Assembly (NCBI RefSeq): GCF_024521635.1
Contig: NW_026250425.1
Span: 434,001-498,000, forward strand
Origin: Tricharina praecox
Lineage: Eukaryota
Reading direction: 5' to 3'
DNA: 64,000 nt
The translations under genes and the position numbers were made by a program. Below, one piece after another: positions 1 through 11,105 of the stretch. Numbering within the stretch: the stretch's first letter is position 1; each line of letters opens with the position of its first letter. The notes beneath the pieces were generated by a model. The model saw nothing but the letters and a program-made list of their open reading frames with translations, ran no database searches and had not been told where the DNA came from.

Positions 1-27
1 TTCCGGTCGTATCTCGGCCATGAAATC

Positions 28-2686
28 ATGTGGATAGTCACCACCGCTGCCTTGGCAGTCCTTACCATCCGGCGGTATGTGCTTGCCGGTCATCGAAACG
101 GAAACACCAGGTCTGAGGGAGAGACTGCCCCGAGCATGCCGGTGGTGGAGAACGAACCGGTGACAAATGACGACGAAGAGAAGAAGGAGGAGGCGTTTGA
201 GAAGTTCCTGAAACGGCACATCTGCTTGCCGGATTACGAAGAGATCGTCAGGAGGGTCTTGAGAGAAAATGAAGCCCAGAAGAGGGAGGACGCTCGGAAG
301 AAGTCTCAGATGCTTCTGCTCCAGCAGGAGAAACGCTCGGAAGAAATCGAGGAGAGAAAGAAGAAGCTGGTGAAAGTAGAGACGATCAGAGCAACCTCCA
401 CGAAAGTCTCGAGCGGGTTCGAGGAAGAGAAGGAGGCCCAAGAGAATTTTGAGATAGAGATGGCCAAAAAAAGGAATATGCATAATGTGGTCGAGGTGTG
501 GAGTAGAAGAACCTTGGCTACGAAAGAGGTGGGGGGAGAGGAGAGGGAGAGGCTTTTGAAGAATATCGTGGCCGACAAGTGGAAACTGAAACTCGCCGAG
601 AAAAAGAAGATTGAGGAGAACAACAAGATGCTGATCGAGAAACAAAAGGCCGCCGAGGAAGAGAAGGTAAACAAGAGAAGGGTACACGTCCAGGTGGCGG
701 CCAATAAGTGGATGATCAAAACGGCGGAACGCAAGCAGGCGGAGGACAAGATAGATGTTGAAATCGCGTCAAGGGCCGCCGAGGAACAGAGAACGAGGGA
801 AAGGGTGGTAGTAGAGCTGGATGTAGCCGAAGAGAGGAATAAGAGAAGACAACGTGAATGGGTTGAGGAAGAGCGAAAAAAGGAGTGGGCGAGAATTGCG
901 AGTCAGGGTAGAGAGGTTTGTCGATCCTCTCAATTGCGTCCTTTCTGGTGATCAATTGTTAACCTTTGTGCAGGACAAGTCCGGGGATACCAAACGCACT
1001 CAGCCACAGTCTGATGGAAAACAAACGGTCCTTACGGTCGAGCAAGCAATGGAGCCTTGCAAGCAGCTTGGAGAAGGGCAACTCCTATCGAAGCTCAACA
1101 TCGCGCTACATACTCAACACAGCGTCAACACGATCGAGGGTCTTACGGAAGCCCTTCGTTATTGCATTTCCCACGATTACGACTTCGGTACAGCATATGC
1201 CCTACTCCGGAATGGTTGGGAACGGCTCGGCGATGCGCATAGCAGCTTGACGGATAGACTCGCGGTCGAAGAGATCGATAACCGGAGACGAAAAGGGGAC
1301 AGGGACATGCTGAAAAGCGATGAAGACGGCCACCTTGCCATCATCGACCCAGTCACGGTTAAACCGAGAAGGATCTGGGATCTTTTGGCGCATCGGGTGG
1401 TTCCATACGACTCGGTTGACGCTTTTAAGACCAAGAAGCCATGGGCCATATCACATAGCTGGGTGGCCGACATAGAGACGGTGATGACGTCGGTCAACGG
1501 ATTCGAGTGGCCGGTACCCCTACCCAAGGACGTAACTCTCGAAGCCGTTCGAGACGAACTGTTGGATGCCGGCGCCGAGTACTGCTGGCTCGACATTCTT
1601 TGCCTGAGACAGGTATCCGATTCCAAATCATTCGAGCATCTACGGAGTTTGGAATGGGAGATCGACGTGCCGACCATTGGAAACGCGTACTTGGGAAACG
1701 GCAAGGTGGTTCGATATTACAACGGTCTCGGGAGGCCGTTTGAAACTTCTGGATGGGGCGACGTTCACCACTGGTCAAACCGCGCATGGACTCTCCAAGA
1801 GTTCAAAAGCGAGTCTATTGTCGGAGGGGTGGCTAATCCGGCGGGACTTCCTACACGCAAGATCGCCGATGGCCGATTCAGTGGCCAGTCGATGAAACAA
1901 TACGAAGCCCATTGGGACAGCATCTCGAAGCTCTTGGAGTACCGGACGCCCACTACTCCCCACAGCGGTCTCAATGAAAACCCAAATCGGGCAATCAGAA
2001 CCACCTGTTGTGGTTTTTTCGGGCTGCTCAAGGAAATGCGGGAACGCTATGCTAGCAACGAGGTCGACAAAGTTGCTGGGATCGGCTTCCTCATGTTGCC
2101 CGCGTCGCTGCCAGCATTCTCAGAGCGCACCACGCCCGAAGAAGCATGGACTCGCTGTGTTCATCACATGAGTTCAGCGATGAGGGACGAGCTTCTGTTC
2201 CGGTTCCCCGCTCCCGGAGATGGAGGTCACTCGTGGTTTCCATCGTGGAAGCAGATTCAGGACAAAAGGTACGTGCTGCCCGAAGACCGCCCGGGAAGCT
2301 TGGACGATATTAGTGATCGGCGCTCGGGCTTGACAAACCATGTGCGTCGTTCCGCCACCAGTTACACGTATTTCGGACATCTCATCGAGAAAGGCCATCT
2401 CGTGGCGCAGCCGACCGGCGATAGGATCGATGGTCCGAGACGGTGGGCCGTGACGGTGGAGCACGGTGGACGGAAATTGAAATTTTTCGTTTCTGCGAGA
2501 CACCATGTTGAAATTCCTGATGGCGAATACTCGCTGGTGGGCCGGGTCGGTTCCAAAGACTTCATCGTGTGTCGGTATGATGAGACCGCAACTGTCCCCG
2601 GGCTGCAGAAGGTTTCTGTCGTATCGATGGATAGCGACAAGGTTGACCAGTCAATCTTGTTGAACAAGCCGTGCAGATTCGTGTAG
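28..2686 (+). CDS. HET-domain (heterokaryon incompatibility-type) protein with N-terminal hydrophobic segment and E/K/R-rich coiled coil; exons 28-915 and 974-2686 (~866 aa; frame is open back to base 1, so it may start upstream of the window)
   Basis: ORFs 28..951 and 854..2686 are joined in frame by a 58-nt intron 916-973 (GTTTGT...TTAAC...TGCAG), giving ...SQGRE|DKSG.... HET motifs: PRRIWDL, AISHSW, YCWLDILCLRQ, DVPTIGNAY, WSNRAWTLQE. Confidence 0.85.
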
Positions 2687-4565
2687 TGAACGATACGGGA
2701 ATTCCTTTCTATTTGCATGTGTTTTCTTTTCTCACCTTTGTCACGACGATCTTGAGAGGTGGAGTCACTTTATGTATGGACGTTCTATTTGGGTTCCTTC
2801 TGGTTGTTAAGCGTGCTTACATAAGTTGTGCTTTTCCTTTTCTGTTTGAGCTAGATCGAATGCAATATAGAGTACATAGAGTTCCGCAACCGACGTCCCA
2901 GCTCCTCGATGCTCGAGCTGGTTAGAGATGGGATGATATGGGCTGCAGACAGGATTAGGAAGCGTGCATGTACATATACCGCCATAGTCTAGATACAGTG
3001 CTGCACGTATGAATCAAGAAATAACAAGCCAGATCGCACTGGACATCTGGGCCCGGGAATATTTCCACTCCGGCCGCCCGGCGCCATCTCGTCTCAGTGC
3101 ATGCAAACATGCCAACACGGCTAAAAAACTGTCCGTCCTCCACCACCATACTCGGTAGTAGGTATATGCTTTCCCCGCGTTTCGGCACCACATGTGAGTT
3201 CTTGATGATCACTGGTAGGTTTCCGCGGGATCCGGGGGTGCCGCAGGTATGTAACGTCTGTGCGCTGCGTGAAGAATCCAGGATGAAGCCCGAGCTCTAT
3301 GTATATACTACCTACCGTACTACCTGCCAGGTAGGTAGTATACTCCACCGGTAACTGTACCATACCTACCATGCCTTACCAATACCAATACTGAAACCGT
3401 AGCACATACATACCTCCCACTCCCGGAGTACAAACCTAGCACTTATTCTGGGAACTTCCCACCGGAGGTTATTTAGAAGTTGGAACGCTCATGTTCTTGC
3501 GCTTCTTCGTGGCGGGAATGGATGCACTGCTTTTGGGAACTTGGGAAGTTGGGATAGCGGTGTCAGACGTTTATTTGGGCTGTATGTGCGTAACTACTAC
3601 CTAGGAGGTGGGTAATCTATCTGGAGTTCCGTGGCCAGGGGGGTGGGTTGTAGAGTATGTATGTTCACACCTGATGTTGATATGCAGGATTGATCATTGG
3701 TTGGAACTTGGCGTGCTCGCTGGAATGGTGGGATTGCTCTGTGAAGTCCGTGTACTCCACGACACTCTACGATATACGATACTCTGCTATGCACTGCACT
3801 GCACCGCTCTGCTCTGCTGGTACACAAGCGAGCACAAACAACTTCGAATTCGTATCTCCAGACTCCCGTGCCGTCAACTGCTGGTGGTTTGTGGGTTGCG
3901 GGTCAATGGTGGGATACTGGTGCCGGTAGATAAATCTCAGAAATCCCAGAATCCCAGACCACATGTCTACCCCTCCCTCCCTCCCTCCCTCCCTCCCTTC
4001 CTCGGTTTGGTCGATGAAGGACAACCAACTAGCCTCCCCGACGTCTCAGTTACAAGAGTGCAGAAGTGCAGGAGTGCAGAAGCCAGGTGCCAGGTGCCAG
4101 GCCGGTGGGGTGGTGTGACGGAGATGCGCGCGCTGGCTGGCGCATGCTGTGTAGAGTACTCCACATATATACTCACTCTGGTTAGCACCATTATACCATG
4201 TCATACAACAGTACCCCGGATCGCGTGCTAGCCGAGTTGCGGTTACAGTTAGCTACTACTACTATATAGACGCCACCGGTATTCCCGGATCCGAATGCTG
4301 CGGCCACGAATCGACAGAGTGTAACAAATACTTACCTGGTAGTAGGTGGAGTAACTATGGATGGGGACGAAACGTAACCCACTAACTATGATGGACGGCT
4401 GTTAATCTATGTACTCGGATTTATGGCGGCAACGGGAATCACTAGTTACCTACCGATAGTGTGACAATCCTGAATCCTGGCCGTCGGTAGTAACGGTGCA
4501 TGTAGCGCTGGTGATGGGGGCTCGAGGGGTAGTGGGGAGGGGGGAGGGGGGAGGGGGGGAGCTCG

Positions 4566-4577
4566 TATATATATAAG
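4566..4577 (+). promoter_or_regulatory. TATA-like element upstream of the P450
   Basis: TATATATATAAG about 100 nt upstream of ATG 4677. Confidence 0.5.
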
Positions 4578-4676
4578 GGCATTTCGCACCACCGAGAAAG
4601 CTCACCGGGCCCTGTCGTGAAAAATATATATATACGGTATATACTTACATAAGTACGGATATCTGTCGATATCGAT

Positions 4677-6604
4677 ATGCTGCTCTCTACTCTTCCAGGG
4701 CTGGCGTTGGCCCTCACCCTCGCCGGGATCCTGACCTTTGCGTATGCGCGCATCGTCGAGAGCAGGAAGATCATGAAGCTTGGGAAGCGCGGGAAGAGTG
4801 TTAACGGTTCATGGTTCGGTATGGCACTCCGCCCCCACCCTCGCGTTGGCTAGAGTAAATGCTGATTCCTCTGGATAGGTATCTCCGAGACGTTGGAGTC
4901 GTTTAGGTATGCGAAGAAAAATATGAATAGAGAGTTTTGGGAGATGAGGTTCAGGCAGCTGGGATCGCATACGCTGGAGACGCAGATACTGTGGAAGAGG
5001 GTCATCTTGACGGCAGATCCCGAGAATATCAAGGCCGTGCTCGCAACGCATTTTCACGATTTTGGTGGGTATTGCTGAGCTTTTTTTCTCTTCCTCTCTC
5101 TTGTGAAGCTCCGCTGATGATGGCTTGCAGGCAAGGGAGAGAGCTTGTGAGTGTCCACTGGCCGCCCACTGATACGATTCGCGGGGGTTAACGGCAGCAT
5201 GTGACTTCCCAGCCACTCGCAGTGGCAAGATTTCCTAGGCGACAGTATCTTCACCACGGACGGCAAGGAATGGTCTGCGTCACGACACCTGATCCGTCCG
5301 CAATTCGTGCGGGACCGGGTGTCGGATCTGCACATATTCGAGCGGCACATCCAGCGGATGATGTCGGTGATCCCTCGCGACGGGTCGACGATCAACATCG
5401 CGGACCTGCTGTACAAAGTAACTCTCGACTCGGCCACCGACTTCCTGCTCGGCGAGAGTGTAAACTCCATCGAACACGGGAGCCACGCCTTCGCCCTGGC
5501 GTTTCAGCAGATCCAGGAGCACATGAATAACGTCTCCCGTGCGGGACCGCTAAGACACTTCTTGAAGACTAAGCAGTTCAAGGAGAATCTGAAGATTTTG
5601 AATAATTTCGTTGAACCGTTCGTAGAGAAGACGCTGCATATGAGGCCGGAGGAGCTTAAGGGAAAGAGCGAGAGTGACTATAATTTCCTCCATGCTCTCG
5701 CGGAATTTACGCGGGATCCCAAGATGCTCAGGGACCAGCTGGTCGCTGTGTTGTTGGCTGCGAGGGTATATTCCAATCCATTTCAATATTATGTGGTTGT
5801 GGTGGTTGATATCCGGAGCAGGATACTACGGCCGGGACTTTGGCCTGGGCGCTATACGAACTCGCCAAACGCCCAGAGTGCGTGGAGCGCCTTAGAAGGG
5901 AGATCCTCGATACTGTCGGACCGGCCGGACCACCCACCTACTCGGATCTGAAGGGAATGAAGTATCTCCAACACGTCATCAACGAGACATTGAGATTGTA
6001 TCCTGCCGGTGGGTACTCCCGCAACAAATTACGACAAAAGAGATACTGATCCTTGTAGTCCCGTTCAATGTCAGAGTCTCACTTACAGATACAACTCTTC
6101 CCACGGGTGGTGGACCGGACGGACTTGAAGTACGACTCTGTTCCCAGCCGCTTCCTATTTCATCGATGCTGATGATGTTCGCCTCCAGCCCATAGGTGTA
6201 GTCGCCGGAACGCCAATCGCATACTCCGCCCTAGTCATGCAACGCCGTACGGACATCTTCGGCCCGGACGTCGCCGAGTTCAAGCCCGAGCGCTGGGATT
6301 CATGGTCGCCAAAGGCGTGGCGCTACATCCCGTTCAACGGTGGCCCGAGGATCTGTATCGGCCAGCAGTTCGCATTGACGGAGATGGGATACATCCTCTG
6401 CCGGTATGTTGCGTTTCAATGAATGGTTGCGAGCGAGCAAGCGAGCGATCAAGTTGACTGACCCGACCGTTTTTGGCTAGACTCTTTCAGAGATTCGAGA
6501 AGGTGGAGGATAGAAGCACCCAGAAGCAGTTTGAGCGGTGCGAGGTGACCATCAGTCCCGGAGCGGGAGTCAAGGTTGCGTTCACTCCTGCCGTGAACTT
6601 TTGA
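4677..6604 (+). CDS. Cytochrome P450, CYP52 clan (alkane/fatty-acid hydroxylase-like); 8 exons
   Basis: N-terminal anchor MLLSTLPGLALALTLAG; GDSIFTTDGKEWSASR; I-helix AARDTT; ETLR; PERW; heme motif FNGGPRICIG. Introns about 4819-4878, 5065-5130, 5147-5212, 5766-5821, 6009-6057, 6130-6188, 6404-6480; stop TGA 6602-6604. Confidence 0.92.
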
Positions 6605-7387
6605 GGGCTTAAGGTGGCAGACGGATCTGTGGGATTGTTTTTTCGAATGTGTATCCCTTAATTTGGTTGCATATGATGATGACATGATGTATTTATGCTC
6701 GGGATGAAGATTCTCCCCTCTACCTACGCGTGTACTCTACGTCCAGAGTTCTTTGAGCACCGGTCACCGACCGTCTGGTGTTGCGGTGACCTGCTCGTCT
6801 CGTCAAAGGAGCGCCATCTCGAGTCAGATATTCATGAGATCTCACTCGTCACCACTTGAAACCCCATAAACCGATGAGGGCTACACGTGATCAAGCAATT
6901 AGATAAGTGGGCTCTGATGACTCCTCACGCCGTGATCAACCGTGAATGCTGCCCCTCTGCTCGAGCCCTAGAAGTTCGTGCCTTCCGTGCTGAATCTATG
7001 CATGTAATTTTCTCCAGTCGGCTAGTGCGTTTGTCAGCAGTTTAAATGGGAGCTTGATCGCCTCGTCGTATCTTGTGTTTGTATCGATTGTATCTTGTGT
7101 TTGTGTTTGTTGTCTCCTATATCAACTTGAATAGCCTCACGCTCACAGACGCCGTTGAACGTGGAAAGTCTTGGCTTTCACTAGTGCGGCTGACTGACAT
7201 CTTGAACTTGGTTTAGCAACCTTCCTCCTCCTCCTCTTCGCTACTTACGTCGTACCTATTCCACCTTCCCTACCACTTCTTCTCTTTCTACTGCGGCAAC
7301 CAACCAACTCCCGTAACTACTCCGACACCACAACACCTTCTCTGCTGCAGCGTCCGACCGACCAACCACATAACCTCTCTTCCATCC

Positions 7388-7436
7388 CTCCTCCTCCTCC
7401 TCCTCCTCCTCCTCCTCCTCCTCCTCCTCCTCCTCC
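7388..7436 (+). repeat. (TCC)n microsatellite in the NAB2 upstream/5' leader
   Basis: about 16 tandem TCC units. Confidence 0.9.
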
Positions 7437-7775
7437 CCTCTAACCACACGACACCCACCATTCTATTACCACAACCGACAACCACGCACCGACTCTGACA
7501 AACACGCAACACATTTCTACTTCCCCGCCAGTTTTTCTTAACAGCAGCAGACAGTGTCGCGTCGCTTCAAAGAGCCGCACCTGCCTGCTTGCTTTTTTGC
7601 CTCCCGAACAACCACTTCATCCGGCTGGAACCCTTGTGACAGACAACACCGCCTCCTCCTCTCACATTCTACCGCGCCCGATAATCACCAACAAAAAGCC
7701 TATTCACCCTCGCAACTCTCTACTTCCCTCACATACACCCACCCTCACCACTTAAACACCATACACTACAACACA

Positions 7776-9515
7776 ATGAAGCTCGTACTAAATACTCCGT
7801 TCTCGGATGCGTTCACCAAGCACATCCAGATGCAGATCGCCGAGGTCGGTTGGGCGAACGGTGACGAGAAGTCGCCCCTTGGAGAGTACATTTGCCTTAT
7901 GATCGCCAACGGAAAAGACGAGGAGCAGATCGCGGCGGAGTTGTCGACCGACTTGGTTTCTCCGGTACCCGGCGGCGCGACACCGGCTTCATTCGCGCAG
8001 TGGGTCTTTGCCGAACTGGACAGGCTGCTGAAGAGAGAGGAGGAAGAGGGTCAAGGTGCCAAGGCGGATGACAGCGCAACATACGGAAACGAAGATGCTG
8101 ATATGATGGATATGGGAGAGCCGACTGAGGAGGGAGTGTATGTTCACCTTCGCCCCCCCTTGTCTTCCTGCGGAGAAGCGCGTGCTGACAACTGTTGTAG
8201 ACCTACAGCGCCGAAGGCGATGCGACAACCCAATCCCCGGCGGATGATGAGCCAGATCAACAAGTCGATGGAGAGGAAAATAGACGACCCTCTGCACCGG
8301 GTGCGGCCGAACCAAGAGAAGTTCAAGAATCAGCAGCCTCCAAAGGGCCCCGGCGGTATACGTCAGAACGGCTTCCGCCACAACAATAATAACGGTCCAA
8401 TGCACAATGGCGGACATATGAACCACAGGGGAGGAATGCACCAGAACCGTATGAACGGTGGCCGTCCATTCAATGGTCCGAATCCCAGCATGCTTGCGAA
8501 TCTCACCCCTCAGCAGCAGATGGCGTTCTACCAGATGTACCAGCAGCAATCGCAGATCATTGCTCCCTTCGCGAACGGTCCCGGCCCCGTCAATGCCCCT
8601 CCATTCCCTCAAGGCCAGATGGGTGGACCGCAACACCGCAATAACCACAACCATAACCACACCCACAACCGTAACATGCCGCCCATGCGAGTGAACGAAG
8701 ATGCGTATTCCAACAATTTTTCACAGCCGCACCGCGTTGGTGGAGGACCTGGTGGTGGTGGCGGCGGTGGTCCGAATAGTGGTGGCAGCCTTTTCGAGAG
8801 GATTCAGTCGCCACCTGATCTCAGCACCGAGGGCGAGATGGAGATGCACGACGGTCCGGAGGAGGGTGGCAAGGCCGAAAAGTTAGAGGAAGTGCCTTGC
8901 AAGTTCGGAACGGGATGCACCAAGGTGGAGTGTGCGTTCGGACATCCGACTCCCGCACAGCTCGGCGGCAAACTCACCCACTACGTCAGTGGCGAGAAGT
9001 GTCCATTTGGAATCGCGTGCAAGAACAGGAAGTGCACCGGATCGCACCCATCTCCCGCTTCGTTGTCCAGCTTCCATGCTCGGCCCAAGCAGATTGAGCA
9101 GGACTGCAAGTTCTTCCCCAACTGCACCAACCCCGTGTGCCCCTTCAAGCAGTATGTAACCTCTTGAATGATTGATTGCGTGTGGATTTGCTGACGATAG
9201 GTTTCTAGTCCCGCTATGCCGATGTGCCGTAATGGAGCCAGCTGCACCCGGCCGGACTGTCACTTCACCCATAACGAGACGGCCTGCAAGTTCAAGCCCT
9301 GCTTGAATCCGAGCTGCATCTACAAACACGAGGAGGGACAGCAACAGGCTCCCACTCCCGGAGAGAACCCGTTCGGCAACAAGGTCTGGACCGCTAAGGG
9401 ACGCGGCGAGCACGTCAGCGAGAGGAAGTTCGTGACCGGAGACGACTACACCGAGGAGTTGATTATCCCGGGTGGCGGCGACCACGAGGATATCGCTCCG
9501 CTCGATGCCGAGTAA
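7776..9515 (+). CDS. NAB2: Nuclear polyadenylated RNA-binding protein Nab2 (PWI-like N-terminus, low-complexity middle, tandem CCCH zinc fingers)
   Basis: LGEYICLMIANGKDEEQIAAEL N-terminal domain; repeated CX5CX4H fingers (CKFGTGCTKVECAFGH, CPFGIACKNRKCTGSH, CKFFPNCTNPVCPFKH, CRNGASCTRPDCHFTH); HVSERKF tail; introns about 8137-8200 and 9152-9208. Confidence 0.88.
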
Positions 9516-10205
9516 GTGATACCAACTCACTTCCGGCGACCACCAGAGGCCTGGTAGGTTTGTTGCGATGAGTTACTGTAATGAGATGAGAATGAGTTTT
9601 GCTATGATAATTTTACCCCTGGCTTGTTGATTTTGTTAAGGCATGCTTTCTTGGGAGGCTTTTTTTACTCGAGTGAAGGGGGAGATTCCGCATATTCTGC
9701 AGTTGAGTATATTCGCTGGCAGGTCATTTTTTTTTTTTTGCAGTTTGTCTCTTTACTGTATTGAGGAGTTACGTGGTCCTTTTGCATGCATTTTGATGCC
9801 CCCTTTTATATGCATCTACGTTTTCTTCAGTTTAGTTTCATGTGTTCTCTTTATAGACATGGCCTTCTCACTTCACCTCCCCTCCTTCCCCTCTTTCTCT
9901 GTGTATGTGTATCCGAGGAAAGAAGTGGAGAAGGGAGCGGACTGTAAATATTTATTGTTTTGGGCAGGTGATAATGCGGTGCACCTTTTGAATGCTTGAT
10001 GTCACCTTGTGAATAAGTACATGGGATGGGATTAAATGAAATGGGCATGATCCGCAACATGGATCTGAATTGGACAATTGAAGCTGGTTTGCAGGAATAG
10101 CACCGTCATGTGGATTTGTATTATAGGAGTGAAGTAGAATGTCTCGCTCCCAATGTGGTATTCCAACAGAAGGATAGATGTGCAGTATACTAGTATAGAC
10201 TACTC

Positions 10206-11105
10206 TCACGACATATCCATCCGGTCTACGGCGGGCATCACCTGAGAAGGCGGCGCATCACCCAGCTCCACATCGTCGTCCTCCTCTCCTTCCTCCTTCT
10301 CATCGACCACAGGCTGCGGCGTGGCACCCCCGCCAACACCAGGCGTACCCGGTCGCGGCGTGCCCACCACCGGCAGACCCAGTCTCGCCTCGGCCGTGGC
10401 CCCACCCTGTGCGGGAGTCGCGCCACCACTCTTAGTAGCCGCGCCCTCCACCTCCTCGCCCTCCTCCTCCTCTTCACTCATCCCCTCCCTCCTATCCTGC
10501 TCCTCCTTATCCTCCTTGATTTGCGCGCTCATGAGCTCGAGCTGCGTGACGATCTGCTCGAACTGTGCGCGCCTCGCAGCCCACACAACACCGTACTCAT
10601 CGCGCTCCCTCTGGAGCTCCGCAATCTCATCGTTCAGCCGAGCCAGATTCTGCTCCTGCTCAGCGCGGGGCTTGAGCCGCGGCACGGCCTCGAGGATGTC
10701 CGACGCAATCGCATCGTACTCGAGGCGGTGCGCCTTCTCTTGCTGCGACGCGGCAAGCGTCGCCCGCAGCTCCACTAGCGTGTCCCGTGCGCTCGCGGCT
10801 GTCTCCTCGATGTGCGACTTCTCAACGCTGTACCGCGTTATCTCCCGCTGTGTGGTTGCGAGGTGAAGCTGGATACGTGTGATCGCAGAGGAGAAGTACG
10901 CGAAGTCCAGGTCGATCTCGCCGTGGTGTTGGGAGGGTGACGCGGTCTCGGGGAGCGTCTGCAGCGTCGTGTTCCGCTTGTTCAAACGGGTGAAGGGGCG
11001 CGTCTCGAACAGCAGAGGCCGCGACTTGATCAATTCCTCTGCTTCGTTGTTAGCTGGTGGTGCTCATGATGGTGGGAGGAGCAGCGTGCCTTCGTTGATC
11101 GACAT
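10206..11105 (-). CDS. THO complex subunit 7 / Mft1-like protein
   Basis: MSINE|EELIKSRPLLFETRPF, then IDLDFAYF, EYDAIA and coiled coil typical of the THOC7 family; start exon 11105-11090 joined through a GC-AG intron 11089-11039. Confidence 0.8.

What the first reader, a model, noticed from the sequence alone, without database searches (positions are those of the whole stretch)
28..2686. Hydrophobic anchor + coiled coil + HET protein with no NLR domain
Seen: two overlapping ORFs splice into one ~866-aa protein. It has a short hydrophobic N-terminal stretch (WIVTTAALAVLTI), ~270 aa of E/K/R-rich coiled coil, a helical pre-HET block (LLSKLN..HDYDFGTAYALLR), a HET domain and an unknown C-terminal domain. 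Known: HET domains are TIR-related cell-death effectors in fungal allorecognition, often on NACHT/NB-ARC NLRs. Inference: here a tethered coiled coil could replace the NTPase/repeat module as oligomeriser or sensor, which would be an unusual fungal immune architecture.
Basis: partly seen in the sequence, partly recalled or inferred. Interest (0 to 1): 0.7.

Follow-up and report, generated by a model that had tools for sequence, protein, structure and literature searches.

The report
Fungal HET protein with charged N-terminal stalk
This is one real, spliced fungal gene that puts an unusual N-terminal piece (a short greasy helix followed by a long, highly charged helix) in front of a common type of HET cell-death protein; lacking an NLR module is normal for such proteins, and the charged part does not look like a true coiled coil.

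Summary
The two ORFs are one gene. Contigs from two public runs skip exactly the predicted 58-nt GT..AG intron (916-973) with no other difference. A syntenic ortholog (L001) keeps the same two-exon layout.

The gene is cut by the window edge. The frame is open to base 1, the contigs run 323-342 nt further upstream, and the ortholog starts 8 codons earlier, so ATG 28 is probably not the start.

Exon 2 encodes a compact 550-aa body (AF2 pLDDT 85.8): pre-HET helices, HET core, a helical subdomain and a small beta domain. This body belongs to a large non-NLR HET family with 889 representative clusters. Pfam HET is sub-threshold for this protein (16.3 bits against 22.5), but 15 of 30 relatives pass.

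Exon 1 is 44% charged and predicted helical. It shows no heptad periodicity and has no homolog other than the ortholog.

The hydrophobic segment is conserved, borderline in length (15 residues) and followed by a basic cluster.

HET proteins without an NLR module are the norm in print, and coiled coil plus HET is on record for TOL.

Verdict: an ordinary HET family member with a lineage-restricted N-terminal extension that may be a membrane tether. Interest is modest.

The parts
1..915 (+). Exon 1 (coding). It is cut at its 5' end by the window edge; ATG at 28 is probably internal.
   Evidence: The frame is open from base 1. Contigs run 342 and 323 nt beyond base 1. It aligns with the ortholog's exon 1, L001:4779-5639.
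25..75 (+). Conserved hydrophobic helix IMWIVTTAALAVLTI followed by RR: a candidate membrane anchor of borderline length.
   Evidence: Kyte-Doolittle 15-mer 2.25 and 19-mer 1.61; in the ortholog 2.23 and 1.45. AF2 helix at residues 7-31. Conserved W..V..A....L.IRR.V.
94..165 (+). Low-confidence, probably disordered linker. It is longer and acidic in the ortholog.
   Evidence: AF2 pLDDT below 50 for residues 31-53. There is an indel-rich alignment here.
166..906 (+). Highly charged alpha-helical region of about 250 aa, with no heptad periodicity.
   Evidence: AF2 helices 56-73, 77-172 and 179-302, with pLDDT above 90 over much of it. 49% E+K+R+D. 0 of 223 windows are heptad-like. There is no 3.5 or 7 periodicity.
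916..973 (+). Intron, 58 nt, GT..AG, phase 0.
   Evidence: It is skipped by one contig in each of X1 and X2. The ortholog has a 61-nt phase-0 intron at the matching place, L001:5640-5700, GTTAGT..CAG with a CTAAC branch site.
974..2686 (+). Exon 2, 570 codons plus the TAG stop.
   Evidence: It is 58% identical to L001:5701-7389.
1034..1309 (+). Pre-HET helical block (LLSKLN...YDFGTAYALLR), an integral part of this HET subfamily.
   Evidence: AF2 helices 29-45, 57-66, 71-82 and 92-112 of exon 2. G72 is invariant and N42, D70, F71, R79 and W82 are at least 90% conserved in 93 sequences.
1310..1873 (+). HET core (alpha/beta) with blocks WAISHSW, YCWLDILCLRQ and NRAWTLQE. The Pfam HET match lies at 1445-1624.
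   Evidence: invariant H161, W163, W205, L206, D207, C210, R212, R270, W272, Q275; E276 at least 90% conserved. It is 70% identical to the ortholog.
1874..2323 (+). Helical subdomain of the HET body.
   Evidence: AF2 helices 307-324, 348-373, 388-410. It is conserved in the family.
2324..2683 (+). C-terminal small beta domain (7 strands). It has no significant match to a solved fold and is the most divergent globular part.
2687..2960 (+). 3' untranslated region as far as the contigs reach.
   Evidence: The contigs end at 2893 (X1) and 2960 (X2).

Best explanation
A single, expressed, two-exon gene of a filamentous ascomycete. The closest named relatives of the product are in Pezizomycetes. The protein is at least 875 aa, or about 883 aa if it starts where the ortholog does.

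Its C-terminal 550 aa form one compact body: pre-HET helices, a HET core with the three HET sequence blocks, a helical subdomain and a small beta domain. This body is a member of a large, non-NLR HET-domain family of Pezizomycetes and Agaricomycetes.

By inference from the HET literature, this body is the active part. HET is a TIR-related cell-death or signalling module. The fast-evolving C-terminal beta domain is the likeliest recognition or regulatory part, as the variable C-terminal domain is in Podospora BH1.

The N-terminal 300 aa are a lineage-restricted addition: a conserved short hydrophobic helix flanked by acidic residues before it and a basic cluster after it, then a flexible linker, then about 250 aa of highly charged helix. 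I read this addition as a localisation device. The hydrophobic helix would act as an N-out/C-in membrane tether. The charged helix would act as a stiff spacer, closer to a single alpha helix than to a coiled coil, holding the HET body in the cytosol away from the membrane. I do not read it as a substitute for the NLR nucleotide-binding oligomerisation module.

Shown here: the gene model, the splicing, conservation in an ortholog, family membership and the absence of heptad periodicity. Inferred: the cell-death function, the membrane tethering, the topology and the spacer role.
For: Gene model:
- The intron is skipped exactly in contigs of two runs from two studies, with 0 mismatches over 2.8-2.9 kb. 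The contigs end 207-274 nt past the stop.

Ortholog:
- L001 is colinear with the window across at least the next 5 kb, with neighbouring genes 58-90% identical.
- It has the same hydrophobic helix, a charged exon 1, a phase-0 intron and a HET body.

Family:
- 992 of 8000 scored candidates have E<=1e-3.
- There are 889, 686 and 434 representative clusters at E<=1e-3, 1e-10 and 1e-30.
- 30 of 30 relatives hit only Pfam HET, and 15 of 30 reach the curated cut-off.
- The AF2 model of exon 2 has pLDDT 85.8 and pTM 0.88, so it is one rigid body.

No NLR parts:
- 0 of 50 long-N-terminus family members carry NACHT or NB-ARC, while 20 of 50 carry ankyrin repeats.

N-terminal region:
- AF2 predicts long helices.
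- It is 44-49% charged.
- i/i+4 opposite-charge pairs number 808 against 645+-95 in shuffles, with 6 of 200 shuffles reaching the observed value.
- RR..HR..R follows the hydrophobic helix, or RR.R..R.RK in the ortholog, and H/E/D residues precede it.

Rates:
- Identity to the ortholog is 70% in the HET core, 49% in the C-terminal beta domain and 33-42% in exon 1, against 80-90% for the better-conserved neighbouring genes.

Literature, passages read: PMC10890737, PMC10197012, PMC12881547, PMC3778014.
Against: - The direct Pfam HET score of this protein (16.3 bits) and of its ortholog (16.6) lies below the 22.5 cut-off, and only the first 63-70 of 146 profile positions match.
- The hydrophobic core is only 15 residues, or 11-13 in the ortholog, which has an Arg near its start. 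The 19-residue hydropathy is 1.61 and 1.45, at or below the classical 1.6 threshold. No dedicated transmembrane predictor was available.
- The excess of i/i+4 salt pairs is not seen in the ortholog (449 against 475+-91), so the single-alpha-helix reading is weak.
- The true N-terminus lies outside the window and was not seen.
- The runs that show splicing are labelled RNA only by a guess.
- No function was tested.
Confidence: 0.55

Rival explanations
1. One reading: the membrane-tethered N-terminal region is a coiled coil that oligomerises or senses. It would replace the NACHT/NB-ARC plus repeat module to bring HET domains together and fire them.
For: - TIR-type domains generally act on self-association (established knowledge; reviewed in PMC10197012, passages read).
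- The region is long, helical by AF2 and kept in the ortholog.
- Blocks such as SQMLLLQ..KR.EE.EER.K.L and EIAS..A..QR.RER..VEL.V..ER.KRR are conserved.
- A coiled coil accompanies HET in N. crassa TOL and HET-6 (PMC1325252, passage read).
Against: - 0 of 223 windows (window) and 0 of 205 (ortholog) are heptad-like, which is below the shuffled means of 4.3 and 1.9.
- Power at periods 3.5, 7 and 2.33 does not exceed shuffles. The best case is reached by 49 of 500 shuffles.
- Only 24% of residues are core-hydrophobic and 49% are charged.
- Most family members (162 of 255 with an N-terminal extension of 50 aa or less) have no such region, so the HET body does not need it.
Confidence: 0.15
2. The N-terminal 300 aa are a fast-evolving, largely unstructured or merely helical appendage with no tethering role. 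The hydrophobic helix would be a targeting or degradation signal, or would pack on the protein, and the product would be a soluble cytosolic HET protein like most of its family.
For: - The hydrophobic stretch is short.
- Exon 1 is the least conserved part, at 33% over 207 aa by tblastn and 42% over aligned columns, with large indels and a duplication in the ortholog.
- It has no homolog anywhere else.
- The AF2 pTM of exon 1 is 0.26.
Against: - The reading frame, the intron phase and several sequence blocks of exon 1 are kept between two species whose HET bodies are only 58% identical.
- The hydrophobic helix plus the IRR.V motif is among the best-kept parts of exon 1.
- The acidic-before, basic-after charge pattern fits a signal-anchor (inference from the positive-inside rule).
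Confidence: 0.25
3. There are two separate genes, a charged 307-aa protein and a 545-aa HET protein starting at ATG 1049, with no fusion.
For: - Many relatives, such as the Pyronema 516-aa model P0007, begin right at the pre-HET block.
- ORF 1 has its own stop at 949-951.
Against: - Contigs of two runs join 915 to 974.
- Sequence upstream of ATG 1049 is conserved in the ortholog, where that Met is Leu, and in Terfezia P0010.
- The ortholog has the same phase-0 intron.
Confidence: 0.02

Closest known systems
Non-NLR HET-domain proteins (Pfam PF06985), the large stand-alone class; nearest named members are hypothetical proteins of Pyronema omphalodes, Terfezia boudieri, Tirmania nivea, Kalaharituber pfeilii, Ascobolus immersus and many Armillaria
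   Same: The whole 550-aa body (pre-HET helices, HET core, helical subdomain, beta domain) aligns end to end at 33-49% identity, or 59% to the ortholog. The same three HET blocks are present, and there is no NTPase or repeat module.
   Different: The window's protein carries a 300-aa N-terminal extension (hydrophobic helix plus charged helix) found in none of the other 255 members held. Its own Pfam HET score is sub-threshold.
Podospora anserina BH1 (het-B): HET + HET-associated domain (HAD) + C-terminal lectin fold (PMC10890737, passages read)
   Same: It is a non-NLR HET protein in which HET is followed by a beta-rich domain and the most divergent C-terminal part is the candidate recognition domain. 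Here the C-terminal beta domain is 49% identical to the ortholog against 70% for the HET core.
   Different: BH1 has HET at its very N-terminus and a fruit-body-lectin fold at the C-terminus. Here HET is preceded by 400 aa, and the C-terminal domain gave only weak, non-specific beta-barrel or lipocalin-like matches. Homology of this beta domain to HAD could not be tested because no reference sequence was on hand. No PII-like partner gene lies nearby; the neighbours are P450, a Nab2-type zinc finger protein and THOC7.
Neurospora crassa TOL / HET-6 (coiled coil + LRR + HET; PMC1325252, passage read)
   Same: They are non-NLR HET proteins described with a helical or coiled-coil element in addition to HET.
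   Different: No LRR is found here. The helical region here shows no heptad pattern.
HET-ankyrin proteins of the same subfamily
   Same: They have the same HET body behind a variable N-terminal module. 20 of the 50 long-N-terminus members examined carry ankyrin repeats.
   Different: The N-terminal module here is not a repeat domain and has no Pfam match.
HNWD NLRs of Podospora (HET-E/D/R: HET-NACHT-WD40; PMC12881547, passages read)
   Same: They have a HET effector domain.
   Different: There is no NACHT and no WD40 here. In those proteins HET is N-terminal and the sensor is C-terminal.
Membrane-attached TIR proteins, for example plant TNLs with N-terminal signal anchors or SARM1 on mitochondria (recalled, not checked in any call)
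   Same: The idea of a TIR-like effector held at a membrane by an N-terminal hydrophobic segment.
   Different: There is no homology in the anchor, and membrane attachment here is only inferred.

Membership tests
HET domain (Pfam PF06985) | Homology to the HET profile, directly or through close relatives, in the same region | tested here: met
   The direct match is sub-threshold: E 0.013, 16.3 bits against the 22.5 cut-off, profile positions 3-63 of 146. Relatives found at E 1e-70 to 1e-148 hit HET and nothing else in the homologous region in 30 of 30 cases, and 15 of 30 reach the cut-off.
HET domain (Pfam PF06985) | Three conserved sequence blocks. The motif definitions are recalled from the literature and not taken from a call. 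| tested here: met
   WAISHSW, YCWLDILCLRQ and NRAWTLQE are present. H161, W163, W205, L206, D207, C210, R212, R270, W272 and Q275 are invariant, and E276 is at least 90% conserved, in 93 sequences.
HET domain (Pfam PF06985) | Induces cell death when overexpressed (PMC12881547, PMC10197012) | not testable with these tools
   This needs an experiment.
TIR-like fold / NAD-cleaving TIR enzymes | Flavodoxin-like alpha/beta fold superposable on TIR | tested here: inconclusive
TIR-like fold / NAD-cleaving TIR enzymes | Catalytic glutamate | tested here: inconclusive
   E276 is nearly invariant, and the literature says HET shares the important Glu with TIR (PMC9153377, passage read). However, I made no alignment to a TIR sequence.
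Fungal NLR (STAND) receptors | NACHT or NB-ARC NTPase domain | tested here: not met
   There is no such Pfam hit at E<=1 in either exon product, and 0 of 50 long relatives have one.
Fungal NLR (STAND) receptors | C-terminal WD40, TPR or ankyrin repeats | tested here: not met
   There are no repeat families. The C-terminus is a 120-aa beta domain.
Coiled coil | Heptad periodicity of hydrophobic residues | tested here: not met
   0 of 223 windows have at least 75% hydrophobic a/d positions (shuffled mean 4.3). Power at periods 3.5, 7 and 2.33 is within the shuffles. These are crude home-made tests, not COILS or Marcoil.
Coiled coil | Self-association of the helices | not testable with these tools
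   This needs solution biophysics. See Tried and rejected for the one modelling attempt.
Single-pass (signal-anchor) membrane protein | Hydrophobic helix long enough to span a bilayer | tested here: inconclusive
   The core is 15 residues. The Kyte-Doolittle 19-mer is 1.61 (window) and 1.45 (ortholog) against the classical 1.6. No TMHMM-type tool was available.
Single-pass (signal-anchor) membrane protein | Charge asymmetry across the helix (positive-inside rule) | tested here: met
   H/E precede the helix in the window and D/H/E in the ortholog. RR..HR..R follows it in the window and RR.R..R.RK in the ortholog.
BH1-type HET-HAD-lectin architecture | HAD domain and fruit-body-lectin fold after HET | not tested
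   No BH1 sequence or model was on hand. The fold searches listed galectins and lipocalins only at Foldseek E 0.04-0.2.

The most novel reading that the evidence does not exclude
A membrane-tethered HET (TIR-like) effector. A reverse signal-anchor would put a few N-terminal residues in the lumen. A 250-residue charged single alpha helix would then hold a complete HET body about 30 nm out in the cytosol. That would be a fungal way of stationing a death or signalling domain at an organelle surface, where clustering in the plane of the membrane, rather than a nucleotide-driven oligomeriser, would switch it on.
Probability: 0.2. Interest if true: 0.5.

Novelty: new variant of a known kind. Interest (0 to 1): 0.3.

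Why it matters
HET domains are among the most abundant and least understood domains of filamentous fungi. How they are activated outside NLRs is an open question (PMC10197012, PMC10890737). A HET protein that is naturally tethered and spaced from a membrane would offer a handle on whether localisation or clustering controls HET activity.

As it stands, the case mainly shows three things:
- This HET body is a self-contained 550-aa unit that accepts many N-terminal add-ons. Ankyrin repeats are the commonest.
- Gene callers that ignore introns split such genes. The database holds only a 596-aa read-through ORF of this gene, P0003.
- Calling a region a coiled coil from E/K/R richness alone can be wrong.

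Tried and rejected
- Whole-genome look-up: no genome is held for this window, so the upstream start codon and any paralogs could not be read.
- The look-up of sequencing runs: no RNA holder is listed. X1 and X2 are 'RNA?' by a guess. The soil metatranscriptome runs X3 and X4 gave no cover.
- Exon-1 homolog searches: no hit among 7999 longer candidates or 4710 near-length candidates. The Atlas gave no usable hit. blastp and an hmmsearch of the two-sequence profile against the 256 stored proteins gave only self or noise.
- Metagenome scan with exon 2 as the query found no relative. The second scan, with P0004, gave L001 and L002. L002 is a distant paralog-like HET gene without a comparable upstream region.
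- PDB sequence searches with the protein and with the family profile found nothing at E<0.1.
- The Atlas search on the C-terminal domain gave a lead only: a cluster with PF26640 DUF8212 at score 0.89. Pfam gave no such hit at E<=1.
- Complex prediction with two copies of exon-1 residues 77-305 gave no verdict (score 0.00, controls not run). It counts neither for nor against self-association.
- The search of earlier findings turned up nothing relevant.
- Literature searches for a membrane-anchored or transmembrane HET-domain architecture and for HET plus coiled coil found no description of this N-terminal arrangement. Only listings were scanned, plus passages of six papers, and supplements were not opened.
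- Considered and rejected: a second intron (the contigs show a single joint); a second copy in the window; and a linked partner gene as in het-B (the neighbours are a P450, a Nab2-type zinc finger protein and THOC7).
Full report
**1. What is in the sequence**

On the + strand, frame 1 is open from window base 1 to a TGA at 949-951. The first ATG is at 28. A second ORF in another frame runs from ATG 1049 to TAG 2684-2686.

Removing 916-973 joins the two in phase 0 and gives 296 + 570 = 866 residues counted from ATG 28. This stretch is 58 nt and runs from GTTTGT to CAG, with a TTAAC-like branch site.

**2. Is the splice real?**

No genome is held for this window. A search for sequencing runs found two holders from two studies. 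The tool labels them RNA only by a guess.

One contig from each run was laid on window 1-3200: X1 at 3177 nt and X2 at 3225 nt. Both match with 0 other letters and 0 gaps, and both skip exactly 58 nt with GT..AG ends. The tool reports the joint as 913/972 and says it fits equally well two bases to the right, which is 915/974.

The contigs end at 2893 and 2960, which is 207-274 nt past the stop. They also continue 342 nt (X1) and 323 nt (X2) beyond window base 1. Their size and ends fit an mRNA. At the least, an intron-less form with exactly the predicted borders exists. Only one joint is seen, so there is no second intron in the part covered.

**3. An ortholog keeps the architecture**

A metagenome scan with the closest database relative (P0004, 59% identical) returned locus L001. 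Downstream of the HET gene, L001 is colinear with the window: L001 8486-13389 matches window 4586-9512 at 58-90% amino-acid identity. I therefore treat it as the ortholog from a related species.

The L001 gene has these parts:
- an ATG at 4779, with an in-frame stop 27 codons upstream;
- exon 1 at 4779-5639;
- a 61-nt phase-0 intron at 5640-5700 (GTTAGT...CTAAC...CAG);
- exon 2 at 5701-7392.

Its exon 1 begins MDATRFSIFGPYLDHETGWRVAAAVAIALVIRRLV. The window's first nine codons, FRSYLGHEI, align with FGPYLDHET at 5 of 9 identical positions. The window's Met at 28 corresponds to Gly in L001. Together with the upstream reach of the contigs, this makes it likely that the window cuts the gene and that the real start lies about 8 codons upstream of base 1. 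The product would then be about 883 aa.

The Met at 1049 is Leu in the ortholog, and the residues before it are conserved. So 1049 is not a start either.

**4. The C-terminal 550 aa: a common HET body**

- **Pfam:** The only hit on exon 2 is HET (PF06985), and it is below the curated cut-off: E 0.013, 16.3 bits against 22.5, residues 158-217 on profile positions 3-63 of 146.
- **Family size:** 992 of the 8000 scored candidates have E<=1e-3. In the 50%-identity representative library, 889, 686 and 434 clusters have E<=1e-3, 1e-10 and 1e-30.
- **Named relatives:** Hypothetical proteins of Pyronema, Terfezia, Tirmania, Kalaharituber and Ascobolus (Pezizomycetes), and of many Armillaria and other Agaricomycetes.
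- **HET in relatives:** All 30 relatives scanned hit HET and no other meaningful family in the homologous place. 15 of them reach the cut-off.
- **Conserved residues:** A 93-sequence alignment shows invariant or nearly invariant residues in three blocks: WAISHSW, YCWLDILCLRQ and NRAWTLQE. I recognise these as the classical HET blocks from recall, not from a call. The pre-HET helices also carry conserved residues (N42, D70-F71-G72, R79, W82).
- **Structure model:** With this alignment AlphaFold2 gives one compact body, with pLDDT 85.8 and pTM 0.88. It has helices at 22-112, an alpha/beta core at 113-300, helices at 301-450 and a seven-stranded beta domain at 464-569.

**5. The N-terminal 300 aa**

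- **Homologs:** Exon 1 has no Pfam family at E<=1. It has no database homolog among 7999 longer or 4710 near-length candidates, no usable Atlas hit, and no similarity to any of the other 255 family members I held. Only the ortholog matches: 33% over 207 aa with E 1e-10 by tblastn, and 42% over aligned columns.
- **Conserved blocks:** These include W..V..A....L.IRR.V, AR..SQMLLLQ..KR.EE.EER.K.L.K..TIR, AN.W..K and EIAS..A..QR.RER..VEL.V..ER.KRR.
- **Structure model:** AlphaFold2 with a two-sequence alignment predicts a helix over the hydrophobic stretch (residues 7-31), a low-confidence linker (31-53), and long helices at 56-73, 77-172 and 179-302. pLDDT is above 90 over much of 90-120 and 200-300. 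pTM is 0.26, as expected for an extended shape.
- **Composition:** From residue 56 on, the region is 49% E+K+R+D and 24% core-hydrophobic.
- **Coiled-coil tests, both negative:** 0 of 223 28-residue windows (0 of 205 in the ortholog) have at least 75% hydrophobic a/d positions in any register, against shuffled means of 4.3 and 1.9. Hydropathy power at periods 3.5, 7 and 2.33 lies within 500 shuffles, and the best case is reached by 49 of 500.
- **Single-alpha-helix signal:** Opposite charges spaced i/i+4 are enriched in the window (808 against 645+-95, with 6 of 200 shuffles reaching it). They are not enriched in the ortholog (449 against 475+-91).

I therefore describe the region as a highly charged helix, possibly like a single alpha helix, and not as a coiled coil. 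My tests are crude, and a dedicated predictor should be run.

**6. The hydrophobic stretch**

The core IMWIVTTAALAVLTI has 15 residues. Kyte-Doolittle means are 2.25 over 15 residues and 1.61 over 19. For the ortholog they are 2.23 and 1.45. That sits on the border of the classical 1.6 criterion.

The stretch is preceded by H/E (D/H/E in the ortholog). It is followed by a basic cluster: RR..HR..R in the window and RR.R..R.RK in the ortholog. By the positive-inside rule this pattern fits an N-out/C-in signal-anchor with the HET body in the cytosol. This is inference, and no transmembrane predictor or experiment was available.

**7. How unusual is the architecture?**

I scored 256 stored proteins with the family profile, and 255 matched. 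That count includes the window's own two entries, P0001 and P0003. N-terminal extensions beyond the profile fall into these bins:

| Extension (aa) | Members |
|---|---|
| 0 or less | 97 |
| 1-50 | 65 |
| 51-100 | 38 |
| 101-200 | 21 |
| 201-400 | 23 |
| over 400 | 11 |

Many of these are intron-blind ORF calls, so the extensions are lower bounds.

57 members have an extension of at least 100 aa, and I gave 50 of them to Pfam. The 7 left out to stay under the size limit were P0127, P0234, P0180, P0064, P0115, P0078 and P0159. The results:
- 20 of 50 have ankyrin repeats;
- 1 has DUF7514;
- 1 has a ribosomal L18 C-terminal piece, probably a fused gene model;
- 1 has a near-threshold DyP_N match;
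- 27 have nothing beyond HET;
- 0 have NACHT or NB-ARC.

Only P0162 matches the 44% charge of exon 1. A few members have hydrophobic N-termini: P0145 and P0143 have a single segment, and P0247 has a multi-pass-looking 300 aa. The HET body is therefore a cassette that accepts many N-terminal add-ons, and this particular add-on is private to the window's lineage.

**8. What is in print (passages read, not whole papers)**

- **PMC10890737:** Podospora has 132 HET-domain genes, of which four are incompatibility genes. BH1 is a non-NLR HET protein with a beta-rich 'HAD' domain and a C-terminal lectin fold that sets specificity. How HET kills is unknown.
- **PMC10197012:** HET is often the sole identifiable domain. 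The four N. crassa HET incompatibility proteins are not NLRs.
- **PMC12881547:** The HET domain is about 220-240 aa and is sufficient for cell death.
- **PMC1325252:** The N. crassa HET proteins carry a coiled coil and LRRs, and there is a HET-ankyrin subfamily.
- **PMC3778014:** None of the 15 Pyronema HET proteins has WD, NACHT or LRR.
- **PMC9153377:** HET shares remote similarity with TIR, including an important Glu.

Searches for a membrane-anchored HET architecture listed nothing relevant. Supplements were not opened.

**9. Reading**

The finding is a correctly spotted gene model. The protein is a member of a known, abundant family, so the absence of an NLR module is the rule rather than the exception. 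The coiled-coil oligomeriser idea has no support from the sequence.

What remains of interest is the conserved hydrophobic helix plus the charged stalk in front of a complete HET body. I read it as a probable membrane tether and spacer, with about 0.4 confidence for that part alone.

The gene evolves faster than its neighbours, at 58% identity against 80-90% for the better-conserved neighbouring genes. It evolves fastest at both ends, which is typical of HET-family genes. The neighbours are housekeeping genes: a P450, a Nab2-type zinc finger protein and THOC7. There is no linked partner gene.

Noticed in passing
window 4586-11063; L001 8486-13389: Downstream of the HET gene lie a cytochrome P450 (5205-5948 fragment, PF00067), a Nab2-type CCCH zinc finger protein (7542-9164) and, on the minus strand, THOC7 (10209-11063). 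The first two and their surroundings are colinear with L001 at 58-90% identity. About 1.9 kb after the HET gene (2700-4586) has no counterpart in L001.
   Followed up: partly
L001:5100-5300: The ortholog's exon 1 carries a tandem duplication of the block Q-M-(P/L)-L-L-Q-L-K-x-R-E-E-E-L-E-E-R-R-K-x-L-T (two copies 33 residues apart). The window has one copy, so the charged region changes by block duplication.
   Followed up: no
P0123 (1753 aa), P0127 (1428 aa), P0016: Some database proteins contain two or three complete copies of the HET body in tandem. They are either merged tandem genes or true multi-HET proteins.
   Followed up: no
P0247 (932 aa); P0145/P0143: Other members of the same HET family have hydrophobic N-termini unrelated in sequence to the window's. 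P0247 has about 300 aa that look like a multi-pass membrane region. P0145 has a single N-terminal hydrophobic segment followed by an acidic 220-aa linker. Membrane attachment of this HET body may have arisen more than once.
   Followed up: partly
P0003 (596 aa): The only database entry for this gene is an intron-blind ORF that reads through the intron from a TTG at window 896. The spliced full-length protein is absent from the protein collection.
   Followed up: yes
L001:615-1043 (-), L001:1978-3100 (+): Upstream of the ortholog lie an acylphosphatase gene (PF00708) and an ORF with hydrophobic stretches and no Pfam match. These probably show what lies just outside the window's left edge.
   Followed up: partly
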